DNA of 64,000 bases from an uncultured Phycisphaerales bacterium (lineage in GTDB: Bacteria > Planctomycetota > Phycisphaerae > Sedimentisphaerales > Anaerobacaceae): assembly GCA_963718665.1 (NCBI GenBank), contig OY970359.1, positions 800,001 through 864,000 on the forward strand, given 5' to 3'. Shown piece after piece: positions 609 through 29,332 of this stretch. The position numbers and the translations under genes are program-made. The notes below the pieces were generated by a model. It had not been told where the DNA came from, made no database searches, and saw only the letters and a program-made list of their open reading frames with translations. Positions within the stretch are counted from its first letter, which is position 1. Each line of letters begins with the position of its first letter.

Positions 609-719
609 CAGGAATTATAGCGCAAAACCGAAGGGAAGTCGACCAATTTCAGCAAAACAAGCTGCTTGTAAGGTCAGCTTTCCCAAAAACTTAGCATCGG
701 ATGCGTTTTTTTATAGTAC
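609..719 (+). repeat. Repeat A copy 1 (left-truncated)
   Basis: ggaattatagcgc...gggaagtcgaccaatttc...aaacttagcatcggatgcgtttttttatagtac matches the other copies. Confidence 0.9.
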
Positions 720-739
720 AGGTTGGCTCTTTTTTGTGC

Positions 740-1159
740 TCACCCTCTATTGGAACTTTGTGGCTGTAAGCACTTTTTTGTAAGCCAAAAAACGCTTTCC
801 CATATTACCAATGCAACAATGGTAGCGCCCGTATCGATAAGCCATTCTGAGAAACTTGTCGAGCGACCAAAAAACTGCTGCGTGTATTCATCTATAGCAC
901 CATAAATCGTCATAATCAGCAGCACCACCACGATGCGGCGTAGTGAGCTGAAATTGAATGCTGCTAAAGTTAAGATGAACCAACTGCTCAATCCCAAAAA
1001 GCCCAATACGTGCAGAGCAAAATGTCCCAAGTCACGAATCTCTCTTGGAATTGTGTTATATGGAACATGGGTAGCAGTGAATGCTCCTATCCACATAAGA
1101 ATGAAAATGACCAAGATTAGTTTTCGATGACGATATAGCAGTTGATTATTACTGTGCAT
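740..1159 (-). CDS. VanZ-like membrane protein
   Basis: 139 aa, hydrophobic, H...FLGL and YGAIDEYTQQFFGRSTSFSEWLID motifs. Confidence 0.85.
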   Translation of the reverse strand: MHSNNQLLYRHRKLILVIFILMWIGAFTATHVPYNTIPREIRDLGHFALHVLGFLGLSSWFILTLAAFNFSSLRRIVVVLLIMTIYGAIDEYTQQFFGRSTSFSEWLIDTGATIVALVIWESVFWLTKKCLQPQSSNRG

Positions 1160-1180
1160 TTATGGTTACTTTCTTAGGAC

Positions 1181-1354
1181 TCATCCCATTCATCAGGCCG
1201 CCCTCCTGTATGACTTTAAAAGTCCATCAATACGTTTCTGACAAATGAATTATACTGCATAACTACTGGAAGTCGACCAATTTCAGCAAAGTAAGCCGCT
1301 TGAAGGATAAGCTTTCCCATAAACTTAGCGTCGGATGAGTTTTTTTATAGTACG
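1181..1354 (+). repeat. Repeat A copy 2 (nearly full length, lacks left TIR)
   Basis: catcaggccgccctcctgtatgactttaaaag...cggatgagtttttttatagtacg. Confidence 0.92.
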
Positions 1355-1388
1355 CGGTACAGGACTTGAACCTGTGACATCCTGCGTG
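1354..1388 (-). pseudogene. tRNA-Val 3'-half fragment (att-like remnant)
   Basis: Reverse complement cacgcaggatgtcacaggttcaagtcctgtaccgc contains a T-arm (GGTTCAAGTCC) and acceptor 3' strand; no 5' half. Confidence 0.75.
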
Positions 1389-1400
1389 CGGGGCAAATGG

Positions 1401-1900
1401 TTACGCGTTTGTTGTGAAGATATCGCGGGCGATATCCTCGCCTGCGTTGCTGGCATAGTAATGCTCAACTGCTTTCTGGCCTTTGCTTTCGAACATTTTT
1501 GCTGAAGAAAATGCGCCGTTTTTCATCAAAATGGCGATGACTATGCACGCGGCAACGCTGGCGAATGAATTTTTGTACTTGGCGCATCTTTCGATAATGT
1601 TCAGGTCGGGTCGGATATTTCGGAGATATTCGGCTTTAGCAGTTGTTCGCAGGCAGTGTTTGAGCACACCGATTGCCTGTGTATTGGCTCGCATCAGCAG
1701 ATTGAGATTGTGCGGCTGGGATTTTAACAGCGATATTGCAAGCTCAACCTTGCCGAGACGCGCCAATCGTCGCTGGCAACGCGGGCAGTCGGCAATATGA
1801 TTTTGTATCCAGTGTCGGTCAGGACTGAAACTGTTGGCCATCAGCCGAATGCCCGGTCTCTAAGTTGTCTGCAGTAATTTTTCCCCTTCGAGGCCCACAT
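1401..1900 (-). CDS. Putative zinc-binding anti-sigma factor (apparent 1-nt frameshift near 1845; ORF track shows 1401-1841)
   Basis: HIADCPRC (HxxxCxxC) motif, one hydrophobic segment, directly downstream of the ECF sigma; out-of-frame ATG at 1900 gives MWASKGKNYCRQLR with the expected first Cys. Confidence 0.65.
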
Positions 1901-1904
1901 ATAA

Positions 1905-2465
1905 TTACCTTGTTTCCTTTCTCATCTGCGCAGCCAGAAGCTGCACTGCTTTGCATCTGTAAACCCTCGCGGTCGCGGCCGTGATTCCCATAATCTTTGC
2001 GACCTGCTCATAGGGCAAGTCTCCGAGGTCGTGCAGAGTTACGACATCACGAAAATGATCTGGCAGCTCCGCGATACCCGCTCTTAATGTCTCGGTTAGA
2101 TATCGTGTATCAAGCTCACTGGCGGGAGAATTAGTATTGTTCTGTGTGGTTATCACCGGCGGGGGATTATTCTTTTCTACAAGTTTATGTCTCAGGATTG
2201 ATATGGCTATGTTGCTTGCCGAACGAAAGACATACGCCTTTACATGTTCGGGTTTGCATCCGTGCTCGTGATGCGCTAGTTTCAGAAACGTATCCTGATA
2301 AGCATCGCAAACGTCCTGTTCGTTGCCGAGTATTCGCCACAGCATATTAACCAGCCCCCGGCCGTGCTGCTGCATAGCGCAGAGAACCCAACCCTGCGTT
2401 CTTTCCAACGTCGCCGGGATTGGAACATCCCACAACAATTCGATGCTGACAGCCCTGCCAGTCAT
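1905..2465 (-). CDS. ECF RNA polymerase sigma factor
   Basis: Region 2 (DVCDAYQDTFLKL) and region 4 (LPDHFRDVVTLHDLGDLPYEQVAKIMG) motifs. Confidence 0.9.
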   Translation of the reverse strand: MTGRAVSIELLWDVPIPATLERTQGWVLCAMQQHGRGLVNMLWRILGNEQDVCDAYQDTFLKLAHHEHGCKPEHVKAYVFRSASNIAISILRHKLVEKNNPPPVITTQNNTNSPASELDTRYLTETLRAGIAELPDHFRDVVTLHDLGDLPYEQVAKIMGITAATARVYRCKAVQLLAAQMRKETR

Positions 2466-2636
2466 AATTTCTCCGATTATTAAGACGCGCTGCCTGATAT
2501 TATGTTAACACCAATTCAATGCCAAATGGTTAAAAATCTCATTTTTTCTGAATAACATTTGGCCCTGCCGGCGCGTCTGAATCTACAGGAGGGCGGAGAG
2601 AAAAAGCGGTAATACGTTTGTTAGGAGTACAGGGAA

Positions 2637-3812
2637 ATGGCTTTAACTCTTTATAAAGACAAGTCTTACGAGCGAAAACCGCAAGCGGGTGACGTTGTCG
2701 CACTTGTGGATGAACTGCTCACAAAAGCCGTGGATATAGGCGCCAGCGACATTCATTTTGAGCCGACCGGGTCTGAACTGGTGGTAAAATTTCGACTTGA
2801 CGGGGTGCTGAACACGGTCGAATCTTTGCCAAAAGCTGTTTCAGACAACGTAATTTCACGCCTGAAGGTTCTGGGCGGGCTTCTGACGTATCGCAATGAT
2901 GTGCCCCAGGAAGGACGGATGGAAATCAACAATGGTCACGGAAATATTGTTGACCGTCGGCTCTCGGTATTTCCGACAATATACGGCCAAAGATGTGTGG
3001 TGAGAATTTTCTACCAGAACGTTCAGTTGACAGACCTCGGACAACTTGGATTCGCACCGGAGATATATGCTGCGTTGAAGCAAATCACCTATGCTAATCA
3101 GGGTGTTCTGCTGGTGACTGGACCGGCAGGCAGCGGCAAAAGCACCACCTTAGGTGCGGTTCTGCGACATATCCAGGAACAATTTCCGGGTAAAAGCATC
3201 GTCACTCTGGAAGACCCCGTGGAAATTCGACTCGATGGCGTTACCCAAGTTCAAATCACGCCTTTTGGTCCGATGACTTTCCCGACGGCTCTGCGTTCAC
3301 TTCTTCGCCAGGACCCCCAGGTCCTGATGATAGGCGAGATTCGGGATGCTGAAACAGCGAAGATAGCAATTGAAGCGGGCCTTACGGGGCATCTGCTGAT
3401 GAGCACAATGCACAGCGGCTCAGCCGCGTCGGCGATTCTACGCCTTCTGGAGATGGGTATCGAGCCATACCAGGTGACATCAAGTATATCGGCTGTTCTG
3501 AATCAGCAGCTTGTCCGCCGACTATGCGACAAATGCAAAAAACAAACAGCTTCCGGCGATTGCGAACCAGTCGGATGTGATGATTGTTTTGGAACTGGAT
3601 TTCGGGGCAGGATGTTGATTGCCGAGCTTGTCCGGCTTGACAGCCAGTTGCGAAAAGCGATTCTCGCCAAGACCGATACTGATGAAATTGAGAAAGTCCT
3701 GACTAATAAAGGGCACACTGGTATGGTTGAAGACGGCAGGCGATTGGTTGCTGACGGCCTGACCACGCAGGATGAGCTTGATAAAGTATGCGGCTCAGCA
3801 GGGGATATTTGA
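2637..3812 (+). CDS. GspE/PilB-family secretion ATPase (short, no N-terminal extension)
   Basis: ASDIHFEP, Walker A GPAGSGKST, TLEDPVE, LRQDPQVLMIGEIRD, GHLLMSTMH, CxxC...CxxC. Confidence 0.93.
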   Translation: MALTLYKDKSYERKPQAGDVVALVDELLTKAVDIGASDIHFEPTGSELVVKFRLDGVLNTVESLPKAVSDNVISRLKVLGGLLTYRNDVPQEGRMEINNGHGNIVDRRLSVFPTIYGQRCVVRIFYQNVQLTDLGQLGFAPEIYAALKQITYANQGVLLVTGPAGSGKSTTLGAVLRHIQEQFPGKSIVTLEDPVEIRLDGVTQVQITPFGPMTFPTALRSLLRQDPQVLMIGEIRDAETAKIAIEAGLTGHLLMSTMHSGSAASAILRLLEMGIEPYQVTSSISAVLNQQLVRRLCDKCKKQTASGDCEPVGCDDCFGTGFRGRMLIAELVRLDSQLRKAILAKTDTDEIEKVLTNKGHTGMVEDGRRLVADGLTTQDELDKVCGSAGDI

Positions 3813-3841
3813 CAGGTAAATAATAATACGGGAGATTCAGG

Positions 3842-5047
3842 ATGGCGACTTTTGAATATAGTGCGATGACGGCTTCTGACCGGCTGATGAAAGGTATTAT
3901 CGAAGCCGGGTCGGTGCAGGAAGCATCTGAATTGCTTGAGCAGATGCGGCTCAAAGTCAATTCGCTCGAAAAAGCCAAATCCGAAAGGCCTAAAACGCCT
4001 ATTGCCAGGACAGAGTTTCTGCTTTTCAATCAGCAGCTTGCCTCGCTTACCAAAGCCGGGATTCCTTTGGAACAAGGGCTGAGAGAGCTGTCGAAGGACG
4101 TGGCTTCGAAGCCGATGCGCAAGCTGATAGATTCGATTGCCCTGGACCTCGAAGCGGGGATGAGCATTGAGCGGGCATTTGAGAAAAGGAAAGAGCATTT
4201 CCCGCCGCTCTATGGCCGGATACTCAAGGCCGGCGTCGAGACAGGCCGGCTCAGCGAAATGCTGACGAGCTTAAACAGACACATTGAGGTTTCCAGCCAG
4301 ACAAGACGGATAGTATTCGAAGCGATGGCCTATCCGGCGGTCGTTTTTGTTATGGGTTCCCTTATTACGACTTTTTTGCTGCTGTTTATAGTTCCAAAGT
4401 TCAAGAATATTTTACAGGAAATGCTGGAAGGGCAAGGACTGCCTCTGCTGACGCAGTTCGCTTTATCTATGTCGGATCACATTTTATATTTCTGGCTGGT
4501 AATCGGCTGTCTGGTTGTTGCGATTTTGGGAATCAATGCGATTCTCCGGTCGTTCCCGGAGGGACGACGAATCAGGGAAGCTATATTTTTACGCATACCC
4601 GCGTTCGGACCTTTATATCACAGCACCATATTGAGCAAGATGGCCGAGGCAATGGCGATGATGGTCGCGGCCGGCTGTGATATGCCAACGTGCCTGCGGC
4701 TTGGGCCTGACGCGGCGAGCAGTGAAACACTGATAAGGGAGGGGAACATGATTGCCGGGCAGATTGAAAAAGGAGCCGGCATTCTCGACGCCGGGCAATT
4801 TTGCCGGGTTATGCCCCGGTTCTTTCTTTATTCGATTCAACTGGGTTCGCAGCGAAATGAGCTGGAAGACAACCTGCGAAGCTTAGGCGATATGTATGCC
4901 CAGCAGGTTCGCAGTGCCCAGACCCGCCTGCAGGGGCTATTGTTGCCCGTTATGATTATCTTTGTGGGCTTTTTCATAATGCTGTGCATTCTTGCGATGT
5001 TTCTGCCAATGATAAAGATAATTTCAACTCTTAATGTTGGCGGTTAA
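3842..5047 (+). CDS. Type II secretion system F / PilC family platform protein
   Basis: FNQQLASLTKAGIPL, AGVETGRL, MAYP; typical TM layout. Confidence 0.92.
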   Translation: MATFEYSAMTASDRLMKGIIEAGSVQEASELLEQMRLKVNSLEKAKSERPKTPIARTEFLLFNQQLASLTKAGIPLEQGLRELSKDVASKPMRKLIDSIALDLEAGMSIERAFEKRKEHFPPLYGRILKAGVETGRLSEMLTSLNRHIEVSSQTRRIVFEAMAYPAVVFVMGSLITTFLLLFIVPKFKNILQEMLEGQGLPLLTQFALSMSDHILYFWLVIGCLVVAILGINAILRSFPEGRRIREAIFLRIPAFGPLYHSTILSKMAEAMAMMVAAGCDMPTCLRLGPDAASSETLIREGNMIAGQIEKGAGILDAGQFCRVMPRFFLYSIQLGSQRNELEDNLRSLGDMYAQQVRSAQTRLQGLLLPVMIIFVGFFIMLCILAMFLPMIKIISTLNVGG

Positions 5048-5055
5048 GGATTTTT

Positions 5056-6507: not shown

Positions 6508-6528
6508 TTTGGATGAAAGACGGGAAAT

Positions 6529-6949: not shown

Positions 6950-6950
6950 G

Positions 6951-7843: not shown

Positions 7844-7853
7844 TGCGGGAAAC

Positions 7854-7897
7854 TGGGCGGTACAGAACTCGAAACTGTAGCATCCTGCGTATAAGGC
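7854..7897 (-). pseudogene. Degenerate tRNA-Val 3'-half fragment (att-like remnant)
   Basis: tgggcggtacagaactcgaaactgtagcatcctgcgtataaggc; 29/34 identical to 1354-1387. Confidence 0.7.
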
Positions 7898-7942
7898 GAG
7901 ATGTTCCAAAAACTTAGAATCGGGCGAGTTTTTTATAGTACG
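7890..7942 (+). repeat. Repeat A copy 3 (right end only)
   Basis: ataaggcgagatgttccaaaaacttagaatcgggcgagttttttatagtacg. Confidence 0.8.
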
Positions 7943-11435: not shown

Positions 11436-11494
11436 GTCGTCTGATTGTAGGGTGGATAGGGCAGGAAACTTGCCGTTTGAATATTCGCTACCGA

Positions 11495-11687
11495 TCCCGT
11501 ACTGTAAAAATATTCATATCATCCATCAGACCGCCCTCCTGTATGACTTCAAAAGCCCGCCAAAACACTCAGGATACAGGAACCATACTGCGGAACCATA
11601 GGAAAGCCGACCAATTTCAATAAAATCAATGGCTTATAAGGCCAGATATTCCATAAACTTAGCATCGGATGAATTTTTAATAGTGCG
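11495..11687 (+). repeat. Repeat A copy 4 (full length)
   Basis: tcccgtactgtaaaaatattc...cggatgaatttttaatagtgcg. Confidence 0.92.
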
Positions 11688-11727
11688 ACTCAAAACCGCT
11701 GAACCATTAAACACGCCCTAAAAAAAC

Positions 11728-11776: not shown

Positions 11777-11948
11777 TAGCGGGGGCATCATATAAGGACC
11801 TGAAGATACCGGATTTTTAGCACACTATGCCGAAAATTGATGGCACTTTTGTCACCTTTTGAACACTGCCAAAACGCGTAACTCTTTATCCGTCAAACCG
11901 TTACCGAATGTCACCCCTCTATACCCTGACAAAGTTTTAAAACCTACC
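11777..11948 (+). repeat. Repeat B copy 1 (172 bp)
   Basis: First 88 bp identical to 18099-18186; about 12 mismatches over the rest. Confidence 0.95.
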
Positions 11949-11957
11949 TCCTAAAAA

Positions 11958-11996
11958 TCAGCTTTACCTAAAACTTAGCATCGGATGAATATTTTT
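11958..11996 (+). repeat. Repeat A copy 5 (degenerate right end)
   Basis: tcagctttacctaaaacttagcatcggatgaatattttt. Confidence 0.75.
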
Positions 11997-14181: not shown

Positions 14182-14810
14182 GCTCCTTTCTGCCAATGGT
14201 TTTCTATTGTCCCTCGAAATCTGGGGACACCATATAATGGCACTAACTTAACTGGAATTTCCCGTATCAAACGCTTGGCTACGCAACCAAGCTTTCCAAT
14301 TCTCGATAATATCAAAATCTTCGAGGTGTCCTAATCTTAGTTGAAGGTTCAATGGCTACTTCTGTTGGACATATTAAGCGGCCCTTTCTTTCATAGCAAC
14401 AGATTTTCCCTTCAGCGAATGAAGATATAATGAGTTCAACATCAAGGGCCTTGAAAAGATAGATGTGGCGCCTCAAGATCTAGAATATGTATATAGAGCA
14501 ATGCTGCTTTAAGACATTCATCACGTTCAGAGGCTGATAAAACAGCTGTTTTACATCCAATAGCGGGGGCGCGCTCGTGGCCGTATCACATGAAAAATGC
14601 CTTCTGGGAAAAATGGTGCGTGGCGGCTTAAATTGACCGATTGCCGTGGTTTTCTTGTCGTTGTTACCATTCGTCTACTCCTTAACCAAGTGCTTAATAT
14701 GGGAAATCCTAATTTTAAACACGTAGAGAGGCGATTTTTCTTGATTTTTCGGCCTGTTTCTGGCTATAATATGGAACCTAGTTTTATGCTGATTGTTCAT
14801 GGAGGACGGT

Positions 14811-16445
14811 GTGAGCAGATACGCCCGAATCATGGCGTTGTGGGGTGTCATAGTTTCAGCACAATATTGTGTGCTGACGCAGAAGGCATACGGTCTGGTG
14901 GAATCAACCGGTCCAGACGGGTCTGATGCAATAGCGGTGCACCAACTCGGCATTACGGGAAAAGGCGTTAATGTCGGATTCATATCGGCTGACAGTGTGC
15001 TAACCACACATGAGGCCTTCCAAGACGCCAACGGCATTATACATGCTTTTGATTACGACTTCACAGGCGACGGTAATTCGATTACCGCACACGACACGCA
15101 ATTGGCAGGAATAATCGCGAGCAACGGTGGAGCCGCATATCCGAACGAAATCGGAGTAGCTCCAGGAGCGGTTATTTACTCTGCAAGAGTTTCGGACAAC
15201 AGCGGAAACGTTTCAAGCACATGGCTTATTAACGCCCTCAATGAGCTGATTGAAGATTATAATTGCCGTGTGATTGTTACCGGGTTCGAATTTACTACAG
15301 GGACAGGAACCGAACCTAACGGCAATAGCCCATGGACACTGCTTTACGATTATTATGCGTATCAGTATGGCGTGACTTTTGTAAATGCGGCGGGCAATCG
15401 AAACACGTATGTTACCATATTTGGCGACGCTTATAACGGCATAACCACGGGCGGACTTCGGCTTACCGACCCGAATAACCCCTCTGACTATCGCTGGGCG
15501 GGACTTATAAGCGGTTCCGGGCCAACAACAGACGGCAGACGCAAGCCGGATATAACCGCACCATCACAAAATCAGATAGTGCCAACATCGAGCAGTGATA
15601 CAGCATGGACGACGGTTGGGTCAACAGGCGGGGAAACGAGTTGGGCGGAACCGCATGCCGCAGGGGCGGCTGCACTGTTACTGGAACTTGCGGACACAAC
15701 ACCGGGGCCGAATGATAATAGCAGCGTTGTAATAAAGGCGGTGCTGGTTAATTCCGCGATGCCGAATGTTAACAGTAAAACGGACATCAGCACAAATCCG
15801 GCAGATTCGAACAATACCTGGCAGGCGGACAGGGGTTATGGTCGGCTTGATTGTCTTCGAGCTTATCAACTGCTGGATACCAACGAAGTCGAGCCCGGAA
15901 CGACAATCACACAGGACAGGGGCTGGGGATTCGGTCGGATTGGGCAAGGGGCAACAAATGTTTACACGATTCATATAGCGCAAAGGTGCCGGCTTATAGC
16001 AACAACCACCTGGCTGCGAAGGATAGACAATATGATGTACGCCCATTTGGCCAACATCGATATGAATGTTTGTGCGCCGGGTGAGCCGAACGCAATTTTT
16101 AACAAAACCATGTTTGGCTACAATACCAGTGACAATCTTATAAAATGTGACCTGCTCATACTCACGCCTGGCGATTATACAATCACAATTGCGAATAACT
16201 CGACGAGCAACGAGACAGCCAATTACGGCTTTGCTTTTGAACTTCATCCGATTATGGCGGGCGATTTGCCGCCAATAGATTATGTCGTGAACTACAACGA
16301 TTTATCGACATTGGCCGCGGACTGGCTGTCGGATGACTCGCCGCTTGATTCACTGCTGGCCCCCAACGGCGTTATAGATTTTGCCGACTTCGCGATACTG
16401 GCACAGAACTGGCTGCAAATCGACCCCCTCTACTATCAATATTGA
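14811..16445 (+). CDS. S8 (subtilisin-like) serine peptidase family protein with C-terminal dockerin-like repeat
   Basis: GITGKGVNVG, HDTQLAGIIA, NAAGN, KPDITAP, GETSWAEPHAAG; C-term VNYNDLSTLAADWL...IDFADFAILAQNWL; GGAGG before GTG 14811. Confidence 0.85.
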   Translation: MSRYARIMALWGVIVSAQYCVLTQKAYGLVESTGPDGSDAIAVHQLGITGKGVNVGFISADSVLTTHEAFQDANGIIHAFDYDFTGDGNSITAHDTQLAGIIASNGGAAYPNEIGVAPGAVIYSARVSDNSGNVSSTWLINALNELIEDYNCRVIVTGFEFTTGTGTEPNGNSPWTLLYDYYAYQYGVTFVNAAGNRNTYVTIFGDAYNGITTGGLRLTDPNNPSDYRWAGLISGSGPTTDGRRKPDITAPSQNQIVPTSSSDTAWTTVGSTGGETSWAEPHAAGAAALLLELADTTPGPNDNSSVVIKAVLVNSAMPNVNSKTDISTNPADSNNTWQADRGYGRLDCLRAYQLLDTNEVEPGTTITQDRGWGFGRIGQGATNVYTIHIAQRCRLIATTTWLRRIDNMMYAHLANIDMNVCAPGEPNAIFNKTMFGYNTSDNLIKCDLLILTPGDYTITIANNSTSNETANYGFAFELHPIMAGDLPPIDYVVNYNDLSTLAADWLSDDSPLDSLLAPNGVIDFADFAILAQNWLQIDPLYYQY

Positions 16446-16538
16446 AGCTGTTATAAAGCTATAACGACATAGGAAAGTCGATATTTCCGACATTTCTGGA
16501 CAGTACCACAGACGCTAAAAGGCAAGAATGTCAAAAAT

Positions 16539-16585
16539 GTCAGCTTTCCTAAATCTTAACATCGGATGAGTTTTTTTATAGTACG
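16539..16585 (+). repeat. Repeat A copy 6 (right end; a separate short internal piece near 16467-16481)
   Basis: gtcagctttcctaaatcttaacatcggatgagtttttttatagtacg. Confidence 0.85.
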
Positions 16586-16865: not shown

Positions 16866-17002
16866 TCCCGTACTGTAAAAATATTCATCTCAACCATCAG
16901 GCCACACTCCTGTACGGCTTCAAAAGCCTACGAAGACGCTCCCGACATAGGAATTATATCGCGGAACCAAAGGGAAGTCGACCGATTTTAACAAAATAAG
17001 CT
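16866..17002 (+). repeat. Repeat A copy 7 (left part, interrupted by IS)
   Basis: tcccgtactgtaaaaatattc...gggaagtcgaccgattttaacaaaataagct, then the IS TIR. Confidence 0.9.
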
Positions 17003-17991
17003 TGTCCTACTCAAAAATTCGAACTTGTTCTATTTCAATAACTTATGTAAACTCCCTGAATTGCTACCAAAAATTGATTCTATAGGAATTCATGGGAGAA
17101 AGCAACCTTGAAAACGCTTTGTATGCTTATTGTTGATTTATTCACCGCCCTGCTCAAGAGCAAACGGGACTTGATCCTCGAAAACCTTGTTCTCCGTCAG
17201 CAATTGGCTATCCAGCAACGCAGCATCAAAAGGCCTAAAATCAAAAATATAGACCGTATCTTCTGGGTCTGGCTGTTCAAAATCTGGGACCATTGGAAAT
17301 CCGCACTGATTATCGTCAAACCCCAGACAGTTATTGGCTGGCACCACAAAGGTTTCAAACTATACTGGCGATGGAAGTCTCACAGAACCGGCAGACCAAC
17401 GACTGATTGGGAACTGATCAAGCTTATCCGAAGGTTTCAGAAGGAAAATCCAACCTGGTCGTCTCAACGGATTCAGGGCGAACTGGCAAAGCTCGGATAC
17501 ACTGTCTGTGATAATACCGTGGCCAAATACATGCAAAAACACAGCTGGGATGATGCTTCGCGACAGCTATGGCTGACCTTTCGCCGAGAGTGTCTGAACC
17601 ACGTCATCACTCTGAATGAAAGACATCTGCATAGCGTGCTGAACGAATACATCAATGAATATTACAACATCAGCAGAACACATATATCACTTAAGAAGGA
17701 TTCGCCCGTGCATCGCCCCCTGTTCAAACCAATGGCAATATCGTTAGCAAAGCCATCCTCGGCGGCCTGCATCACAATTACAGCCGAGTTGCCTGAATAC
17801 AAATCATGCTCTGGTTATCAAGCAAAACAGAGAACTTCTGCACCAACAATGAAGATTCAGCAAAAAACATGTTCCGGCCAGAGAAAGCCCCTTCCAAATC
17901 AGTTAATATCAACTTGCCAATGAGCAATTTCCCCCATCCGACATCCAAAAAACGTTAACTTTTACGGCCGGATGAATTTTTGAGTAGGACA
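17003..17991 (+). mobile_element. Defective IS element (integrase-core/DDE transposase type)
   Basis: Perfect 18-bp TIR TGTCCTACTCAAAAATTC / GAATTTTTGAGTAGGACA enclosing a transposase ORF. Confidence 0.9.
17108..17923 (+). pseudogene. Internally deleted, frameshifted transposase
   Basis: ENLVLRQQL, VKPQTVIGWH, ENPTW..RIQGEL.KLG, then WLTF joined directly to RRECLNHVI (central catalytic region missing). Confidence 0.85.
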
Positions 17992-18098: not shown

Positions 18099-18270
18099 TA
18101 GCGGGGGCATCATATAAGGACCTGAAGATACCGGATTTTTAGCACACTATGCCGAAAATTGATGGCACTTTTGTCACCTTTTGAACGCCGCCAAAATGCG
18201 TAACTCTTTACCAGTAAAACCTTTAGTGAATGTCACCCCTCTATACCCTGACAAAGATTTAAGTCCTACC
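18099..18270 (+). repeat. Repeat B copy 2 (172 bp)
   Basis: Direct repeat of 11777-11948. Confidence 0.95.
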
Positions 18271-18321
18271 CAGCTTCCAGCCACGGTGGACATAGGTAGC
18301 CAATCTCTCGCTAGAACTGTA

Positions 18322-18493
18322 CCCATCCATCAGGCCGCTCTCCTGTATGACTTCAAAAGCCCACCCAAACGTTTCTGACATAGGAATTATATCGCAGAAC
18401 CGTAGGGAAGTCGACCAATTTCAACAAAATTAGCTGCTTGTAAGATCATCTTTACCACAAACTTAACGTCGGATGAGTTTTTATATAGTACGG
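18322..18493 (+). repeat. Repeat A copy 8 (nearly full length)
   Basis: ccatccatcaggccgctctcctgtatgacttcaaaagccc...cggatgagtttttatatagtacgg. Confidence 0.92.
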
Positions 18494-18625
18494 CATTTAG
18501 AACACGTGCGTATGAGATTGATGAAGGCAATATCGTTGGTTCTTGGTCTCTCAGTGACAACTGGGGGCTTTTATACTGATCCTCGTTAAGGAATAGGCTA
18601 AAATATGGTAGTATTTCTTGACGGA

Positions 18626-18994
18626 TCAGCTTAATCCGACCAGTATTGTGCCGCCGACAATCAGCACAACGCCCACCCATCGCCGCAGCCCAATCTGCTC
18701 CTTCAACAGCAGCCGGCAGAATACCATTATAATTACTAGTTCCAAACTACTGATGAGGTAGGCCATGCTGACATCCAATGTTCTCAACGCGAATGTCCAG
18801 CAAAACCCCGCCACCACGAAACACGCCACGCCCAAACTGACCAATTTGTATCGTTTCAGGGCCAGTCGCAGTACCGCAAAGGTCGTGTGGTTGTAACGGC
18901 CAAAATCCACCGATTGCTTGAATGCAACATGGCCCAGCCCCTCGGTGATGACCGATCCCAGAACCAACAGCAGTCCAGGCAGGCGTTCTATCAT
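18626..18994 (-). CDS. SMR/EamA-like small transporter (ArnE/ArnF-like flippase subunit)
   Basis: 122 aa, 4 TM, ALRTLDVSMAY...LLKEQIGLRRWVGVVLIVGG. Confidence 0.8.
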   Translation of the reverse strand: MIERLPGLLLVLGSVITEGLGHVAFKQSVDFGRYNHTTFAVLRLALKRYKLVSLGVACFVVAGFCWTFALRTLDVSMAYLISSLELVIIMVFCRLLLKEQIGLRRWVGVVLIVGGTILVGLS

Positions 18995-19461
18995 AGCATG
19001 GTTTCCGATGGTTGGCCTGGCATTGCGCGAGGCGAGGGCATATGAGGAGCCCTCGTGTTATGATCGGTGCTGCTGATGAACCAGACCCCAACCAGGATCA
19101 TGACAATGCCTACCATCCGCATCACGCCAACCTTCTCACCGAAGAACATAACTGAGCAGGCAACCACCGAGACCAAACTCAAGGCGGTGATCGGTCGGGC
19201 GTAGCTGAGGTCCGCCTTGGCAAGCAGAAGAATCCAGAAAATGAATTGGACTCCAAAAATGCTCAACAGGAAGTAGAATATCGGTTGAACCGTCACTGTC
19301 CGCACCGTTTCCATGAAACCGGCTGACTCCGGCACGCCAAGGACAACAGATTTCCACACCATTTGCGCCACCGTCTCCACCACGATGGTAATGGTTAGAA
19401 TCAACCAAACCATACGTGGAAACTTCGCGATGTTCTTACCGGCTTGTGGGAGATGCTCCAT
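18991..19461 (-). CDS. SMR/EamA-like small transporter (ArnE/ArnF-like flippase subunit)
   Basis: WILLLAKADLSYARPITAL...FFGEKVGVMRMVGIVMILVGV; 4-bp overlap with partner gene. Confidence 0.8.
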   Translation of the reverse strand: MEHLPQAGKNIAKFPRMVWLILTITIVVETVAQMVWKSVVLGVPESAGFMETVRTVTVQPIFYFLLSIFGVQFIFWILLLAKADLSYARPITALSLVSVVACSVMFFGEKVGVMRMVGIVMILVGVWFISSTDHNTRAPHMPSPRAMPGQPSETML

Positions 19462-19534
19462 CAGACATTTCCTATTTGATCCGATATTTCCGACTTAATG
19501 CTTTTTCGACTTTCAACTCCATTATTCGCGGCAG

Positions 19535-20206
19535 CTAAAGTAGGCCCTGTTCCTTATAACGCCGTTTCACGTCAGGAAAATGCTTTGCAATTGCGTGTTC
19601 TGCTAGATTACGGATTGGTCCTCCGTATATCATCCCATGTTCCAAATGGTTGCACAAGTACTCAAGTTGAAAATACCGACATACGGCATGTCCGACGTCA
19701 GTATATGCGTTGGCGCATATCTCTCTCACAAATATTCCCCGACAGGACAAGTCATCAATAAGCTGAAAGATACTTTTGAATAATAGCTGGACGCTTCGCA
19801 GTTTCCTGAACGAAGGATGCATACATATCTGTGAAAAGTAAATATCATAAAAGCCGGGAGGACCAAAAAATTGAACTTTGTCAATAGTAATCTGGCTGTC
19901 GAGTAATCTGCCGCGTTTGGCAACAGCATAATCTTCAGGAAGCAACGGAGCAAAATGCCAGTAACCCACAATGCTCCGCGGTTTGTTAACTAACAAACGC
20001 CAAGTGTCAGGTTGGTTCATGAAAACTGGCGCCCATTGAGCTATATCACCTTCGTGTTTAAGAACCAAACCCGGAATCGTCATGTAGTCGAGTCGGATAA
20101 GTTCGTCCACCAGCATTCGGCCATTCCATCCCCACGATAGGACATCCTGAACCCCGGCAACGGTAATACCAAGTGCACCCATAGTTTTATTAATATTTCC
20201 CTTCAA
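19535..20206 (-). CDS. Hypothetical protein, possibly GNAT-like fold
   Basis: 223 aa ORF; IVGY...ICMHPSFR pattern resembles GNAT motif A. Confidence 0.55.
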   Translation of the reverse strand: MKGNINKTMGALGITVAGVQDVLSWGWNGRMLVDELIRLDYMTIPGLVLKHEGDIAQWAPVFMNQPDTWRLLVNKPRSIVGYWHFAPLLPEDYAVAKRGRLLDSQITIDKVQFFGPPGFYDIYFSQICMHPSFRKLRSVQLLFKSIFQLIDDLSCRGIFVREICANAYTDVGHAVCRYFQLEYLCNHLEHGMIYGGPIRNLAEHAIAKHFPDVKRRYKEQGLL

Positions 20207-20332
20207 TTCAACAAGCCCTATAATACGAATTTTATAGTGCTTTGTTTATAGTTTTTTGCATAGTTTTTTCATCCATGGTTATATTTTAGACGGCAGAGTT
20301 TGACTTCAAATTTTCACGGCAATATATATGTC

Positions 20333-20379
20333 CCCAAGTTAACAAGAACCTTTCTTCAAGATTACATTTTTGTAATGTT
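20333..20379 (-). promoter_or_regulatory. 47-bp element with ATTACA-N4-TGTAAT palindrome (putative response-regulator box/promoter), copy 1
   Basis: 46/47 identical to the reverse complement of 22821-22867. Confidence 0.75.
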
Positions 20380-20382
20380 CAG

Positions 20383-20517
20383 CAACCCACCAAAACACTC
20401 CCAACATAGGAATTATATCGCGGAACCAAAGGAAGGTTGACCAATTTCAACAAGACACGCTACTTGTAATATCAAATTCACCAAAAACTTAGCATCAAAT
20501 AAGTTTTTTATGGTACG
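20383..20517 (+). repeat. Repeat A copy 9 (left-truncated, diverged)
   Basis: cccaacataggaattatatcgcggaaccaaagg...aaacttagcatcaaataagttttttatggtacg. Confidence 0.85.
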
Positions 20518-20633
20518 CGATATCGCTGGCTGTTATTAGTTCCTCAAAAAATTTCAAAATAAAACTCTTATTCACTCAGCATAGATTATAATATCCTGTA
20601 AAAATAATCCTTTACTGCAAAGGAAAACAAGCT

Positions 20634-22095
20634 GTGCTGGCGGGAAAAATTAACGTTTTGCGGCAAGATATCGCTTTCAGATTAAGTCTCTGGTATGCCC
20701 TTATTCTGCTGCTGCTGTTTACAATATCTTTTATATCCTTCTCTTTGCTGGCCAAGACCGGAATGGGGAAAAATGCGGAAAAGGATACGTTAGCCGATGT
20801 TGATGAATGTAAATCCATATTCCAGTCCGAGGGGTTAGAGGGTCTGCGTAAGGAGTTTCTTTTGCAAGCACATGCCGCTGGCAAAGGAAATATCAGCCTA
20901 AGTGTTCTGAATTCTAAAGGCCTGATACTTATAATTTCAGATTCGCCAAAATGGCAAAATTTTGCCGTTCAACCTGACAGGCTGAACCTTGCACTTGACC
21001 GAGACAAACCGGTGGTGGACATTATCAAAGTTCCTAGTTTTAAGAACAAGGCTATTGTTGTTTATGCCCGTTTGTCGCCGGACAAAATACTGAGAATTGC
21101 CCATCTTTTACGCCAGGATGAAAATTTCCTTTACGACCTGCAGAAAACCCTGATAGTCGTCATGGCAATTACACTGGTAACTGTTATTATCGCCGGCTGG
21201 TTTATACTGAAGCAGGTCATCGGGCGAGTAGTTGTGGTAACCAATACCGCCTTGTCCATCAAGGGCAGCTCGCTGAGCAAACGGGTCCCTGTCAGCGGGC
21301 TGATGGATGAGGTTGATCGTCTTGCTCAAGCCTTTAATAACATGTTAGACAAGATTGAATCCCTCGTAAAAAGCCAGCAGGAAATAACCGACAACGTGGC
21401 CCACGACCTTAGAATCCCGCTGACAAGAATTCGCCTTATCGCTGAATCGCTTTTGACCGCACGAGGCGAAAAAACTGATTCACAAGAATCTGTTAGTATG
21501 ATAATAGAAGAATCCGACCGTCTTTTGGAAATGATTAATACAATGCTCGAAATCAAATCTATCGAGATGGGCATAGCTATATGGAACCTGACCGACGTCG
21601 ACATTGCCGAGGTCATAAAACAGGCGTGTGAATTCTTCCAGCTGGCGGCTGAGGACAAAGGACTTACTCTGAAGTTAAATCAAATTATATCTTTTGTGGT
21701 CAAAGCCGATCTGCGCTGTCTGCAGCGGGTCTTTTCCAACCTGATTGACAACGCTGTCAAATATACTCCGCCAGCGGGTAATATCGAGATTACCATGCGG
21801 GCCATCAATCATGAGATAGCTGTTGAAATTTCCGATACGGGAATCGGCATCGCACCCGATGCCCTACCACGAATATTTGAACGTTTCTACCGCGGTGACA
21901 AAAGCCGAAACGTCTCCGGATTGGGACTTGGCCTGAGCCTGGCGGAAACAATTATCAAAGCGACATGGCGGAAGAATTGAAGTTGAAAGTACGGTTGGCA
22001 ATGGAAGTACCTTTACCGTCTTTTTGCCCGGCTGCAGGCCGGCCAATAACATGACCAAAAAAGAGGAACTGTGTAATGAGAGCTCTGATAGTTGA
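20634..22095 (+). CDS. HAMP-domain sensor histidine kinase (1-nt insertion near 21963 truncates the ORF at 21980)
   Basis: DEVDRLAQAFNNML, NVAHDLRIPL, NLIDNAVKYT, DTGIGI, GLGLGL; shifted frame continues HGGRIEVESTVGNGSTFTVFLP. Confidence 0.92.
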
Positions 22096-22756
22096 AGATG
22101 ATGAGAAGATCGCCTCGTTTATCCTAAAGGGATTAAAAGAGAACGGCTTTGCTGTCGATCATACCGGCAATGGTGAAGACGGCCTTCACATGGCTTTGAC
22201 CGAGCCGTACGATGCTGCCATTATCGATATCATGCTGCCCAAGCTCGACGGCCTCACACTTATCAAAGAAATGCGGAAGAACAATATTAAGACCCCGGTG
22301 ATAATTTTAAGTGCCCGAGGCACCATTGATGACCGTGTAAAAGGTCTCCATGCAGGGGGCGACGATTACCTCACTAAGCCTTTTGCCTTTACCGAGCTCC
22401 TGGCCCGTGCCCAGTCCCTTATTCGAAGGGTCAGCGGCATCGCCGAACCCACCAGCTTATCTGTTCATGACATCTCTATGGATTTTCTCAGGCGGGAGGT
22501 TACCCGTGCGGGCAAAAAAATCGAACTCACGTCCCTTGAATTTGCGCTTCTCGAATACCTCATACGAAACGTCAACACCGTTATCTCCAAGACAATGATT
22601 ATGGAACATATATGGAAATATAATTTCGACCCGCAGACAAACATCGTTGATGTCCTGGTCTGCCGGGTGCGAAATAAGATCGACCGCGATTTCGGCGAGA
22701 AATTGATACATACTCTTCGCGGGGTCGGTTACATCCTTAAAACGCCTGAATTGTAA
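22076..22756 (+). CDS. OmpR/PhoB-family response regulator (CusR/CopR-like)
   Basis: IVEDD, DIMLPKLDG, DDYLTKPFAFTELLAR, FDPQTNIVDV, LIHTLRGVGY. Confidence 0.95.
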   Translation: MRALIVEDDEKIASFILKGLKENGFAVDHTGNGEDGLHMALTEPYDAAIIDIMLPKLDGLTLIKEMRKNNIKTPVIILSARGTIDDRVKGLHAGGDDYLTKPFAFTELLARAQSLIRRVSGIAEPTSLSVHDISMDFLRREVTRAGKKIELTSLEFALLEYLIRNVNTVISKTMIMEHIWKYNFDPQTNIVDVLVCRVRNKIDRDFGEKLIHTLRGVGYILKTPEL

Positions 22757-22820
22757 CACCGAAAAAGACAAAACCTTACAGATTTCCCTTCTTTCTTTTG
22801 ACCTCTTCAGCAAGCATCTT

Positions 22821-22867
22821 AACATTACAAAAATGTAATCTTAAAGAAAGGTTCTTGTTAACTTGGG
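22821..22867 (+). promoter_or_regulatory. 47-bp element with ATTACA-N4-TGTAAT palindrome, copy 2
   Basis: Inverted copy of 20333-20379, upstream of the radical SAM gene. Confidence 0.75.
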
Positions 22868-22978
22868 AAGCACATAATGCCATGTAAAGTCGTTTTCTGA
22901 AATCCGAAAGGATAAATTTGTGGTAAAGACGGCAAAGAAGACCTTGCATGAGCCAGATTTAACGTTCTTGGTGCGCGT

Positions 22979-24469: not shown

Positions 24470-24508
24470 GAGCAAAAAAATAGTGAATTCAGTTGAGTTT
24501 AATGGTGT

Positions 24509-26125: not shown

Positions 26126-26223
26126 CCGAAGTTAAATGGAGGCGATAGCCTATGGCCTATTTTGGTTAACGACATACATTACGGCAAGCCCTTTTTGAAC
26201 AAAAAAGCAAATAGTTCAGAGGA

Positions 26224-26318
26224 GAATTATATCGCAGAACCGAGGGGAAGCCTCAATAGTTTATAAGGCCAGATGTCCCATAAACTCAGCATAGGATGAG
26301 TTTTTTTATAGTACGGGA
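26224..26318 (+). repeat. Repeat A copy 10 (left-truncated, internal deletion)
   Basis: gaattatatcgcagaaccgaggggaag...ggatgagtttttttatagtacggga. Confidence 0.88.
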
Positions 26319-26465
26319 GTGTATTCGGGAAATATGCAATATTTGTCCACGAAATCCGTCTTGGTATTCAATTAAGGCAAAAGATCATTGAAAAATGTAA
26401 ACGGGTGAGGTTAGAATCGCGGAATTATTACGGGATAAAAAACAGGCGATAAAGGAGAAAAACAA

Positions 26466-27521
26466 ATGGTTACAAAAGAAACGGTCTTACAAAGTGTGCT
26501 GTCGATAACGGCGATTGTCTGCGTGGCAGCATTTTGCGGCGTCGCATCAGGCGAAGAGTCAAGTTACAAGCTGATTAAGAGGGTGCCGATAGGCGGCGAG
26601 GGCGGCTGGGATTATCTTGCCGTCGATAGCGCGACAAATCGATGTTATATCTCGCACGCCAATCACGTCGTTGTTTTTGATACGGAGAAAGAAAAAGTAA
26701 TCGGCGACATAAACAATACGCCCGGCGTGCACGGGATAGCAATCGCCGCGGGGCTTAATAAAGGTTACATAAGCAACGGCGGCGACAGCACGGTAACGGT
26801 TTTCGATACGGCGACGCTGAAAGAAACCGCCAGGATTAAGGTAGGCAACAGGCCCGACGCCATTTTGTTCGACCCGGCGACAAAACGCGTCTTCACATTC
26901 AACGCAGGCAGCAAAGACAGCACCGTTATCGACGCCGTTAAAGACATAAATATCGGCAATATACCTTTGGGCGGCAAGCCGGAATTCGCGCAATCCGACG
27001 AGAAGGGGCAGGTATTCGTCAATATGGAGGACAAAAACGAAATCGCCGTGATAGACGCCGAAAAGCTGACCGTTACGAACAATTGGCCGATTTCGCCCTG
27101 CGAATCACCCAGCGGATTGGCCATTGACCGCAAAAACAAGCGGCTCTTTTCGGTCTGCTCAAACGGCAAAATGGCGATAACCGATTACACAACGGGCAAG
27201 AGTTTAGCAACGCCTGCTATAGGCAGAGGGCCTGACGCGGCGGCTTTTGACCCCGAAACAGGTTTTGCATTCAGCTCCAATGGAATGGATGGGACATTGA
27301 CGGTGATAAAGGAAGCCCCGGCCGGCCAATTCAAGGTTGTCGAAACCGTGGCAACTGCGCCGATGGCGCGCACTATGGCGCTGGACCCGAAAACGCACAG
27401 GATATACCTTGTTACGGCGAAAGTAAAACCGCCCGCACCTGGAGAGCAACAGGGCGGACGCCGCAGAAACTTTGAGCCGGACTCATTTGAATTGCTGATT
27501 GTCGGTCCAGCCGCAAAATAA
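26466..27521 (+). CDS. Secreted YncE/YVTN-type beta-propeller protein
   Basis: GGEGGWDYL, GVHGIA, PDAILFDP, GKPEF, ARTMALDPKTHRIYL; signal peptide, AAGGAG RBS. Confidence 0.88.
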   Translation: MVTKETVLQSVLSITAIVCVAAFCGVASGEESSYKLIKRVPIGGEGGWDYLAVDSATNRCYISHANHVVVFDTEKEKVIGDINNTPGVHGIAIAAGLNKGYISNGGDSTVTVFDTATLKETARIKVGNRPDAILFDPATKRVFTFNAGSKDSTVIDAVKDINIGNIPLGGKPEFAQSDEKGQVFVNMEDKNEIAVIDAEKLTVTNNWPISPCESPSGLAIDRKNKRLFSVCSNGKMAITDYTTGKSLATPAIGRGPDAAAFDPETGFAFSSNGMDGTLTVIKEAPAGQFKVVETVATAPMARTMALDPKTHRIYLVTAKVKPPAPGEQQGGRRRNFEPDSFELLIVGPAAK

Positions 27522-27659
27522 AAAACGTTTACGCCGGGTTCATGATTTAACTTATGCCGGATAATACAGTTTGGCGTTGGCCGAAATACCCTGTTTTGAA
27601 GGGTTTTTGCCGAGGGTAACGGCGACAAGATTATAAAATGACAAGGATTTGAGCTAACA

Positions 27660-29033
27660 ATGCACTCGTTATATCGAACACTGCGGACAGCAATACGCTC
27701 TTTAAGACGGCATATTATGAGGTCGGCGCTGACCTGCTTAGGAATCGTTATCGGCATCGCATCCGTCATCGCGATAATCGAAATCGGTCAGGGGACAAAC
27801 TATTCGATACAGCAGACAATTGCTGCGATTGGCGCCAACGTAATACAGATTGACCCCAGCCAGGTGATTGTTGGAGGCGTGAGCACCGGGGCGGGAGGCA
27901 AGCCGACACTTAGCCCCGATGACTGCGACGCGATTCTACGGGAGTGCAGCGCGGTTCGCTGCGGCTCGCCGAGCGTCGATTGCAGAATGCAGATTGTTTA
28001 CAGCAATCGCAACTGGTCGCCGATGAACATACTGGGGGCATCGCCTGATTACCTGGTGGTCCGTAACTGGACAAACCTGGCCGAGGGAGAGGTGTTTACA
28101 GAACACGACGTGCGAAGCGGGGCACGGGTGTGCTTAGTCGGGCAGACGATTGTCAGAGAACTTTTCAAAGGTGAGAGCCCTGTCGGCAAAGAGATTCGCG
28201 TCAAGAACGTAGCGATGAAGGTGATTGGCGTACTCAGCGAAAAAGGCGCGAATATGATGGGCAGAGACCAGGATGATTTTGTTGTTGCGCCGTGGACTAC
28301 CGTCAAATTTCAGTTGTCGGGTTCAAGGCAATCCCAAACTGCCGTAACGACCACCCCGTCATCAACTACGCAGGAAAAAGCCCTTAGCCAACTCTACCCG
28401 GACCAGCAGGTCCAGCTTTACGCGCAACAGTCAGCTGCCCAGGCGGCAAACAGGCCTCAGATGACGCGTTTTAACGACCTCGACGATATCTGGGTTTCGG
28501 CGGCTTCGCAGGAAGAAATCCCACAGGCCATCCAGCAGATTACGAGCTTACTCCGCGAACGGCACCGGATACCAGAGGGCGCACCCGACGACTTCAGAAT
28601 CCGCGACCTGACGGAAATTTCACAGACACTGGCCTCGACACAGAAAACAATGATACACCTGTTGACATGCGTAGCGTTAATATCGCTGATAGTCGGCGGT
28701 GTTGGTATTATGAACATAATGCTGGCTTCGGTAATGGAGCGAACGAGAGAAATTGGCGTCCGGATGGCGATAGGCGCACGAGCTAGAGACATCCTTCGCC
28801 AGTTCCTGACCGAAGCTGTAATTCTTTGTCTTCTCGGTGGCGCGGCGGGCATACTGCTTGGCCGGGGCGCTTCAATAGCGGTTACGGTGTTTCTGAAATG
28901 GAAGACAATATCATCGGTGCCTGCGATAGTGGCTGCTTTCGTGGTCGCCGCCAGCGTGGGAATCATCTTCGGTTTTTATCCGGCGTGGAAGGCATCTCGC
29001 TTAGACCCTATTGAGGCCTTGCGTTACGAGTAG
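27660..29033 (+). CDS. MacB/FtsX-family ABC transporter permease
   Basis: [59 protein letters not shown]. Confidence 0.93.
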
Positions 29034-29140
29034 TGAGAAGCCAGAGAACTCAACAAACTAAAGGCCAGCAAACCAGTTTGCTGCAAACGCCCGTAAGGTG
29101 CAAATATTCACATATTTATCAGCGATTAGATTCATCATGA

Positions 29141-29332
29141 CCCGTACTGTAAAAACATTCGCCCCACCCGTCAGGCCGCCCTCTTGTATGACTTCAAAAG
29201 CCTACCAAGATGCTCCCAATATAGGAATCATATCGCGGAACCAAAGGAAAGGCGACCAATTTCAGCAAAATAAGTTGCTTGTAAGTTCAGGTGTTCTTAA
29301 AACTTAACGTCGGATGAGTTTTTTTATAGTAC
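29141..29332 (+). repeat. Repeat A copy 11 (full length)
   Basis: cccgtactgtaaaaacattc...cggatgagtttttttatagtac. Confidence 0.92.

What the first reader, a model, noticed from the sequence alone, without database searches (positions are those of the whole stretch)
609..29332. Eleven co-oriented copies of a ~190-bp element divide 29 kb of unrelated cargo into cassette-like modules
Seen: repeat A occurs at about 609, 1181, 7890, 11495, 11958, 16539, 16866, 18322, 20383, 26224 and 29141. Every copy is intergenic and in the same orientation, and none was seen in the 34-kb core half. Copies fall at boundaries between functional modules (glgP | VanZ | ECF+pilin cluster | secreted proteins | beta-helix+S8 | small ORF | flippases | TCS+rSAM+ArnT | YncE+permease | Zn-ribbon). 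Two leftward genes stop about 20 bp from the element's right end (740 and 16604). Inference: random MITE insertion would give mixed orientations, so this looks like a repeat-delimited cassette array, integron-like in organisation but without attC structure or intI, grown downstream of tRNA-fMet.
Basis: partly seen in the sequence, partly recalled or inferred. Interest (0 to 1): 0.85.

Follow-up and report, generated by a model that had tools for sequence, protein, structure and literature searches.

The report
Mini-transposon copies punctuate shuffled gene array
The repeat is a shrunken, non-coding copy of an unclassified jumping gene; same-direction copies mark the joints of a gene array that is reshuffled between related bacteria, much as the resistance transposon IS26 does, and it is not an integron.

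Summary
The 11 co-oriented copies are real, but only 2 have both ends. Read on the minus strand, repeat A is a ~190-bp MITE: the left 111 bp plus the last codons and right part of a ~1.2-kb IS found with a whole DDE transposase in congener G020. The family is IS481/IS3-related, below both cut-offs, usually ends CGT...ACG, and shows no target duplication (0 of 58 MITEs, 0 of 15 gene-bearing elements). Copies occur at six more loci on both strands and in 18 of 23 congeners; neighbours are co-oriented 89 to 8. Cargo is reshuffled between species at the repeat, ends sit at nested depths in the same cargo, and copies are mosaics. Best reading: an IS26-like pseudo-compound array. Ends capture adjacent DNA one side at a time, and recombination between copies forces direct orientation. 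It lies on a second scaffold of att-bounded mini-islands at tRNA-fMet. No IntI, no attC fold, no whole transposase in this genome, and no module shown moving intact with both junctions.

The parts
602..720 (-). Repeat A piece: IS left end (terminus at 720) with promoter-like site; right part replaced; upstream of glgP
1183..1354 (-). Repeat A, left terminus at 1354, transposase tail LLKSYRRAA-stop kept, right terminus lost
1354..1388 (-). 3' half of tRNA-Val(TAC), 35 of 35 identical to the gene at C1:345808, cut by the repeat A left end
7852..7897 (-). Second, decayed 3' half of tRNA-Val(TAC) (87%); with 1354-1388 it brackets the ECF/T2SS-pilus module
7885..7942 (-). Repeat A piece: terminal ~58 bp of left end
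11498..11687 (-). Complete MITE with both termini; mosaic (right third 91-95%, rest 71-75% identical to the copies at the same junction in G007 and G017)
11777..11948 (-). Island-end element D4 ending in the 9-bp core CCCCCGCTA (equal to the tRNA-fMet 3' end)
11954..11996 (-). Repeat A fragment without terminus, next to D4
14561..14642 (-). Island-end element B ending in the same 9-bp core; elsewhere fused to the repeat A left end
14713..16467 (+). S8 peptidase segment, 99.5% identical to C1:2580205-2581959 (recent intragenomic duplicate; borders not at repeat termini)
16536..16585 (-). Repeat A piece: terminal 50 bp of left end
16869..17002 (-). Repeat A, right terminus at 16869, left part cut off by the sister IS
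17003..17991 (+). Sister IS remnant with perfect 18-bp TGT...ACA inverted ends and internally deleted rve transposase (17108-17923)
18099..18492 (-). Long form: repeat A left end + transposase tail + degenerate right site + D4 + 9-bp core, followed by a terminator (18087-18056); colinear with the right part of the G020 element
18623..20302 (-). Flippase module, 99.9-100% identical in two pieces to C1:1425798-1427600, where it lies next to another repeat A copy
20333..22867 (.). Two-component module bracketed by a 50-bp inverted repeat (20333-20382, 22818-22867) whose left arm cuts a repeat A copy
20378..20517 (-). Repeat A, left terminus at 20517, right part lost
26218..26315 (-). Repeat A piece, left terminus at 26315, internal deletion
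29143..29333 (-). Complete MITE with both termini; 89/111 and 54/64 identical to the left and right parts of the G020 element
29621..29762 (+). Left end and first codons of a second sister-IS copy, broken off at the tRNA 3' end

Best explanation
Repeat A is a non-autonomous miniature (MITE) of an unclassified IS481/IS3-related DDE insertion sequence (shown). Its ends were joined by a transposase to new DNA one side at a time, so each copy carries two flanks of separate origin and no target duplication, and the same cargo is trimmed to different depths in different species (pattern shown; enzyme inferred). Such one-sided or intramolecular events release circles of cargo plus one copy (inferred). 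Circles, or sister chromosomes, recombine with a resident copy inside the repeat, by RecA or by an IS26-like targeted reaction; this can only give direct orientation, swaps neighbours and makes mosaic copies (mosaics and swapped neighbours shown; the reaction inferred). The result is an IS26-like pseudo-compound array, laid over tandem att-bounded mini-islands at tRNA-fMet that seeded and helped orient it. With no whole transposase found in this genome the array is now probably passive or RecA-driven.
For: Origin: the G020 element (L044 8503-9732) has a 353-aa ORF with rve_3/HTH hits, a D178-D244/246-E279 triad and an integrase fold; the MITE matches it 89/111 left and 54/64 right, and 5 of 5 window copies tested keep an LLKSYRRAA-like tail. 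No duplication: 0 of 58 independent full copies at 3-40 bp; 2-bp matches 9 against 7.35 in shuffles. Co-orientation: 89 same against 8 opposite among neighbours within 10 kb in 11 genomes, while strands overall are 89/86. Flank swapping: 9 junctions recur with a different partner on the other side; 15 candidate nested pairs (flippase and pilin series read by eye). Shuffling: G017 has an extra 1.4-kb module at the 7885 joint; MacB is joined to flippases across one copy in G019; VanZ and glgP modules sit at other loci in G007/G017. Mosaics: in 14 of 16 pairs sharing one junction the shared side is the more alike after subtracting background (my arithmetic; pairs not independent).
Against: Only 1 of 48 two-sided modules recurs with both junctions, and in a shared context, so intact unit transfer is not shown. 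No circle or new joint was seen in the four runs laid, which were contigs only. The two recent duplicates (S8, flippases) do not end at repeat termini. No whole family-1 transposase in G000 (genome 94.6% complete) and only 1 of 23 congeners has one. The G020 element has a degenerate right terminus. Gene-bearing elements in other phyla lack duplications too (0 of 15), so the lack may be simple chemistry and not a sign of flank swapping. Copies are only ~80% alike, which limits present recombination.
Confidence: 0.55

Rival explanations
1. Tandem accretion of att-bounded mini-islands: a site-specific recombinase supplied in trans stacks units at tRNA 3' ends, always in one orientation; the IS/MITE rides inside the unit at a fixed site and only trims cargo afterwards.
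For: The 9-bp tRNA-fMet 3' core recurs at 18099, 14561 and 11777; integrase-less units bounded by it lie at the same tRNA in G002, G014 and G015. The left end sits at one spot just past the tRNA terminator in G000, G002, G006, G017, and the gene-bearing IS lies between that spot and D4 in L044, L092, L113, L117. Large serine recombinases lie in or by these islands in G002, G007, G016 and an integrase-like ORF in G020 (by eye). Other G000 clusters lie by partial tRNA/tmRNA duplications.
Against: Only 3 cores for 11 copies in the window; most cross-species breakpoints fall at or in repeat A. It does not explain mosaic copies or arrays such as G014:C9 with 14 or more copies in two opposed runs. 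No such recombinase in G000.
Confidence: 0.25
2. Ordinary MITE with a strong orientation bias (replication fork or tRNA transcription) inserting into island hot spots without duplication; later deletions blur the flanks.
For: In G000, 7 of 9 loci have the element on the leading strand by GC skew, 1 lagging, 1 mixed (my tally, skew minimum is broad). Ends prefer a G-rich dinucleotide then purine, T, in this genus and across phyla. The sister IS also keeps one orientation to tRNA-fMet in G000, G014, G017, G020.
Against: No full copy had both flanks contiguous in any held sequence (0 of 28 tested; many flanks had no homolog to test). The four copies by tmRNA in G007 follow the tmRNA, which is lagging in G000. 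Swapped flanks and mosaics need recombination between copies.
Confidence: 0.13
3. A dedicated integron-like system: repeat A is the target of a site-specific recombinase that adds fixed cassettes.
For: Strict local co-orientation, intergenic positions, genus-restricted repeat, a conserved promoter-like site in 51 of 58 full copies.
Against: The repeat is an IS remnant with a transposase tail; borders vary; no IntI (best 86.9 bits against cut-off 265); no stable single-strand fold (z -0.71); cargo downstream of the promoter is 29 co-oriented to 29 opposed.
Confidence: 0.04

Closest known systems
IS26 translocatable units and pseudo-compound transposons (PMC4196232 abstract; PMC7885326 introduction)
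   Same: Arrays of unique segments separated by directly oriented copies, no target duplication at the joints, DDE enzyme.
   Different: Transposase is not IS6/IS26 family; separators are 190-bp MITEs of ~80% identity and not identical full IS; IS26 needs intact transposase and makes 8-bp duplications by its copy-in route; chromosomal tRNA islands in a planctomycete genus; reaction untested here.
TIME-COMPs and MITESen1-bounded structures (PMC13367494, passages)
   Same: MITE-bounded cargo; the authors propose circles of one MITE plus cargo entering by homologous recombination at a resident MITE, giving direct orientation.
   Different: Those MITEs derive from Tn3, have 5-bp duplications, bound one segment, and are mostly inverted (135 of 142 for TIME244); here 13 copies form one direct array.
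IS481 family, including the IS1202 group (PMC10045372, passages)
   Same: Single ORF of ~350 aa, HTH plus rve core, short terminal inverted repeats; best NCBIfam hit.
   Different: 107.8 bits against cut-off 224; ends mostly CGT...ACG; no 2-29-bp duplication found.
Tandem accretion of integrative elements at tRNA 3' ends (search listing; mechanism recalled)
   Same: Short att core repeated between units, integrase-less units, variable content at one tRNA.
   Different: Explains the D4/B boundaries, not the repeat itself.
Integron cassette arrays (recalled)
   Same: Co-oriented intergenic repeats between unrelated modules.
   Different: No IntI, no attC fold, multi-gene modules up to 6.5 kb on both strands, variable borders.

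Membership tests
MITE | Short, non-coding, terminal inverted repeats | tested here: met
   ~190 bp, 22-bp inverted ends
MITE | Derived from or sharing ends with an autonomous element | tested here: met
   89/111 and 54/64 identity to the G020 element
MITE | Multiple dispersed copies | tested here: met
   25 hits at E<1e-5 at 7 loci, both strands
MITE | Target-site duplication or empty site showing movement as a single unit | tested here: not met
   0 of 58 at 3-40 bp; 0 of 28 empty sites in held sequence
IS481 family | Transposase above the curated NCBIfam cut-off | tested here: not met
   107.8 against 224
IS481 family | Single ORF with DDE core and HTH | tested here: met
IS481 family | Target duplication, mostly 6 bp (2-15; up to 29 in IS1202 group) | tested here: not met
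   0 of 15 at 3-15 bp, 0 of 3 at 2-40 bp, 0 of 58 MITEs
IS481 family | Phylogenetic placement among ISfinder members | not testable with these tools
   No ISfinder set was available
IS3 family | Transposase above cut-off; two frameshifted ORFs | tested here: not met
   74.3 against 160; one ORF
IS26/IS6 pseudo-compound transposon | IS6-family transposase and 14-bp ends | tested here: not met
   No IS6-family hit at E<=0.01; different ends
IS26/IS6 pseudo-compound transposon | Directly oriented copies between unique segments, no duplication | tested here: met
IS26/IS6 pseudo-compound transposon | Unit of cargo plus one copy moves intact | tested here: inconclusive
   9 one-sided swaps but 1 of 48 modules repeated with both junctions
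IS26/IS6 pseudo-compound transposon | RecA-independent targeted conservative reaction | not testable with these tools
   Needs a bench assay
Integron | IntI integrase | tested here: not met
   TIGR02249 best 86.9 against 265
Integron | attC hairpin | tested here: not met
   z -0.71 for one full copy; Rfam found only tRNAs; IntegronFinder not run
Integron | Cassette genes co-oriented with a common promoter | tested here: not met
   29 to 29 (simple ORF caller)
tRNA-targeted integrative elements in tandem | att core duplicated between units | tested here: met
   9-bp core at 29769, 18099, 14561, 11777
tRNA-targeted integrative elements in tandem | Cognate integrase identified | tested here: inconclusive
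   None in G000; candidates in congeners

The most novel reading that the evidence does not exclude
A large unclassified DDE family (thousands of 50%-identity clusters in the profile search, which also picks up neighbouring families) with CGT...ACG ends joins its ends to targets without duplication and, like IS26 but by independent origin, targets resident copies of itself; its MITE has become the standing recombination joint of a chromosomal gene-capture array in this genus, and the gene-bearing form rides inside tRNA-targeted mini-islands with one live end.
Probability: 0.25. Interest if true: 0.78.

Novelty: new variant of a known kind. Interest (0 to 1): 0.52.

Why it matters
IS26-type arrays are known mainly from resistance regions of clinical bacteria and from one IS family. 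A MITE-punctuated array of the same shape, built from an unrelated and apparently uncharacterised transposase family in an environmental planctomycete lineage, would show that this route to gene capture and shuffling is more general. The family's lack of target duplications and CG termini are unusual for an integrase-fold enzyme and are directly testable, because an intact-looking gene and many end junctions are now in hand. It also warns that co-oriented intergenic repeats are not by themselves evidence of an integron-like system.

Tried and rejected
Integron/attC: rejected. Repeat A as a tyrosine-recombinase attP with a core at the tRNA-Val anticodon: considered, dropped when the parent IS was found. 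Target duplications at shifted termini (offsets 1-4): none. Empty sites: none found. Promoter acting as a cassette promoter: rejected on orientation counts. Sequence search of the transposase in PDB: 0 hits; fold model is moderate (pLDDT 65) and gave only generic integrase/transposase matches. Laying four runs of one study on 10000-29950 showed no circle junction; joints matched other loci of the same genome; contigs cannot show absence; depth over the S8 and flippase segments was about twice the neighbours in two runs, a weak sign only. Telomeric-transposon preprint read by passages: TnsBC elements, not this family. D4 search over 61 family genomes found only short core-side matches and no adjacent integrase. 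The tyrosine-recombinase query was translated in the wrong frame; its rows were not used. Earlier findings of the scan: nothing returned. Nine literature searches showed no description of this family or array; ISfinder and most subscription journals were not searchable, so it may be catalogued there.
Full report
OBSERVATION. A profile built from eight window copies finds all 11 named copies and nothing in the core half. All lie on one strand between genes. Only two have both termini (11498-11687, 29143-29333); most others keep one and the same end. The element has 22-bp inverted ends. In the whole genome (2.61 Mb, one contig, 94.6% complete) there are 25 hits at E<1e-5: 13 in this array, which continues left of the window, and 12 at six other loci, 3 on plus and 9 on minus. 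Most clusters lie beside tRNA or tmRNA genes or their partial duplications. The repeat is in 18 of 23 congeners (four of them only weak short hits) and was not found in the 37 other genomes searched.

WHAT THE REPEAT IS. Searching relatives with the broken transposase at 17108-17923 led to locus L044 in congener G020, where a 353-aa ORF is flanked by the two halves of repeat A. On the minus strand the window copy 29143-29333 matches the first 111 bp of that element at 89 positions and its last 64 bp at 54; five of five copies tested still read an LLKSYRRAA-like tail, the end of the transposase gene. So repeat A is an internal-deletion derivative, a MITE. The protein has rve_3 and HTH hits, a conserved D-D-E triad in an 11-sequence alignment and an integrase-like fold. 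It scores 107.8 bits on IS481 (cut-off 224) and 74.3 on IS3 (cut-off 160). Relatives occur in records titled Planctomycetota, Acidobacteriota, Chloroflexota and Actinomycetota; the profile finds 6,255 cluster representatives at E<=1e-30. The identical protein lies in a record titled Sedimentisphaerales (L091), which points to the host order. No match to it at E<=1e-8 is in G000, and G020 is the only one of 23 congeners with the whole gene. A sister IS with TGT...ACA ends, whose end aligns with that of repeat A from the terminus, is present as a remnant at 17003-17991 and 29621-29762 and with a whole gene in G014, G016 and G017.

ENDS AND TARGETS. From loci of 13 genomes I collected 290 ends, 210 unique, in 178 independent junction groups. 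The terminal dinucleotide is CG in 144 of 178. Flanks read G/C, G/C, purine, T/A and then nothing. Of 58 independent full copies none has a duplication of 3-40 bp, and 9 have a 2-bp match against 7.35 in shuffles. Among 78 gene-bearing loci from other taxa, 15 had both ends detectable; all 15 start CGT, none has a duplication of 3-15 bp, and 4 have a 2-bp match against 2.2. Three Streptomyces plasmid copies with TGT ends also lack one. Where the same flank exists without the repeat (27 junctions), the first two bases match the native sequence in only 15, while bases 3 and 4 match in 26 and 25, and the lost side is A-rich at -3 and -4; this is unexplained and may reflect a short exchanged spacer. 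No empty site was found for 28 full copies, though many flanks had no homolog in hand.

THE ARRAY IS DYNAMIC. The interval between tRNA-fMet and tRNA-Lys measures 45.0 kb in G000, 36.2 in G017, 11.6 in G019 and 68.4 in G020. Neighbouring copies within 10 kb are co-oriented in 89 pairs and opposed in 8, over 175 copies in 11 genomes (27 from G000, 148 of the 149 rows; one row was a piece of another copy), while strands overall are even. Window modules recur elsewhere with breaks at the repeat: G007 shares 1181-11688 with other neighbours; G017 shares 1191-7864 and 7885-11678 with an extra 1.4 kb between two copies; G019 joins the MacB module to the flippases across one copy; glgP plus the 609 copy sits at another locus in G007 and G017. 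Nine junctions recur with a different partner on the far side, and 15 candidate pairs show an end at different depths in the same cargo (some may be noise; the flippase and pilin series were read by eye). Copies that share one junction tend to be alike on that side only: 14 of 16 pairs after subtracting background, most clearly 11498-11687. Against a strict cassette model: just 1 of 48 two-sided modules recurs with both junctions, and the two recent intragenomic duplicates do not end at termini.

SECOND LAYER. The last 9 bases of tRNA-fMet recur at 18099, 14561 and 11777 as the end of elements D4 and B. In congeners the sequence after these cores is often the same terminator block that follows the tRNA elsewhere, and integrase-less units of a few kb bounded by the core sit at this tRNA. 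The IS left end has a hot spot just past that terminator, and the gene-bearing IS lies between it and D4 in L044, L092, L113 and L117 (each shows part of this arrangement), with a degenerate right terminus. Serine recombinases of 621-633 aa lie in or by these islands in three congeners; none is in G000. The pilus-gene module sits next to tRNA-Val in G014 and is bracketed by tRNA-Val pieces here and in G019, so it was first moved by an island process and then trimmed by repeat ends.

MECHANISM. Best reading (0.55): ends are joined to new DNA one side at a time, releasing cargo-plus-copy circles or deleting adjacent DNA, and recombination inside the repeat re-enters them in direct orientation. 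This is the logic described for IS26 (PMC4196232, abstract; PMC7885326, introduction) and proposed for MITESen1 structures (PMC13367494, passages). Shown: origin, ends, lack of duplication, co-orientation, swapped and nested junctions, mosaics. Inferred: circles, the enzyme acting, and whether entry is by RecA or transposase; mid-body switches fit RecA at least as well. Rivals: island accretion (0.25, not exclusive), oriented insertion (0.13; 7 of 9 G000 loci are on the leading strand), integron-like system (0.04).

MEMBERSHIP AND NOVELTY. It is a MITE by structure and descent, though single-unit movement was not shown. It works like an IS26 pseudo-compound array but is not IS26-family. The parent is near IS481 but fails the cut-off and the duplication feature (IS481 features from PMC10045372, passages). 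Nine searches of the held library gave no description of this family or such an array in planctomycetes; ISfinder could not be consulted and no supplements were read. Verdict: new variant of a known kind, interest 0.52.

Noticed in passing
window 14713-16467 and C1:2580205-2581959: An S8 peptidase gene with relatives in most congeners has a 99.5% identical second copy inside the array; its borders are not repeat termini.
   Followed up: partly
window 18623-20302 and C1:1425798-1427600: The flippase module is present twice at 99.9-100% identity but in two arrangements (head-to-tail here, divergent there); G007 has the first, G018, G019 and G020 the second.
   Followed up: partly
window 20333-20382 and 22818-22867: A 50-bp inverted repeat (96%) brackets the sensor kinase and response regulator; possibly the ends of another element or an invertible segment.
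   Followed up: no
window 17003-17991, 29621-29762; L040, L042, L044: The sister IS always lies antiparallel to repeat A and to tRNA-fMet; in G014 and G017 whole-gene copies sit 99 and 18 bp past the tRNA 3' end, without target duplication.
   Followed up: partly
C1:2343231-2344250 and 2116014-2116720: A small broken tyrosine recombinase is preceded at two loci by a sister-IS right end and a repeat A terminus in the same layout.
   Followed up: no
L240-L246: The D4 core with inverted arms around it occurs in other genera of the family, suggesting a widespread att system for tRNA-fMet.
   Followed up: partly
L062 15082-16947, L071 2170-4035, L357: Large serine recombinases (621-633 aa) in or by tRNA-fMet islands of G007, G002 and G016, beside phage-like genes in the first two.
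   Followed up: partly
G014:C9 6772-78943: Two long runs of repeat copies in opposite orientation face each other on one contig.
   Followed up: no
L329, record W01: A 1.5-Mb Streptomyces plasmid holds about 26 diverged copies of the same transposase family, on both strands.
   Followed up: partly
window 24411-24446 and 26154-26189: A 36-bp direct repeat (92%) brackets the ArnT-like gene, which occurs as a separate module in G007 and G020.
   Followed up: no
C1:1681987-1694345: An island lies upstream of another tRNA-Met(CAT) with a duplicated 5' half, and carries four repeat copies and a D4 core.
   Followed up: no
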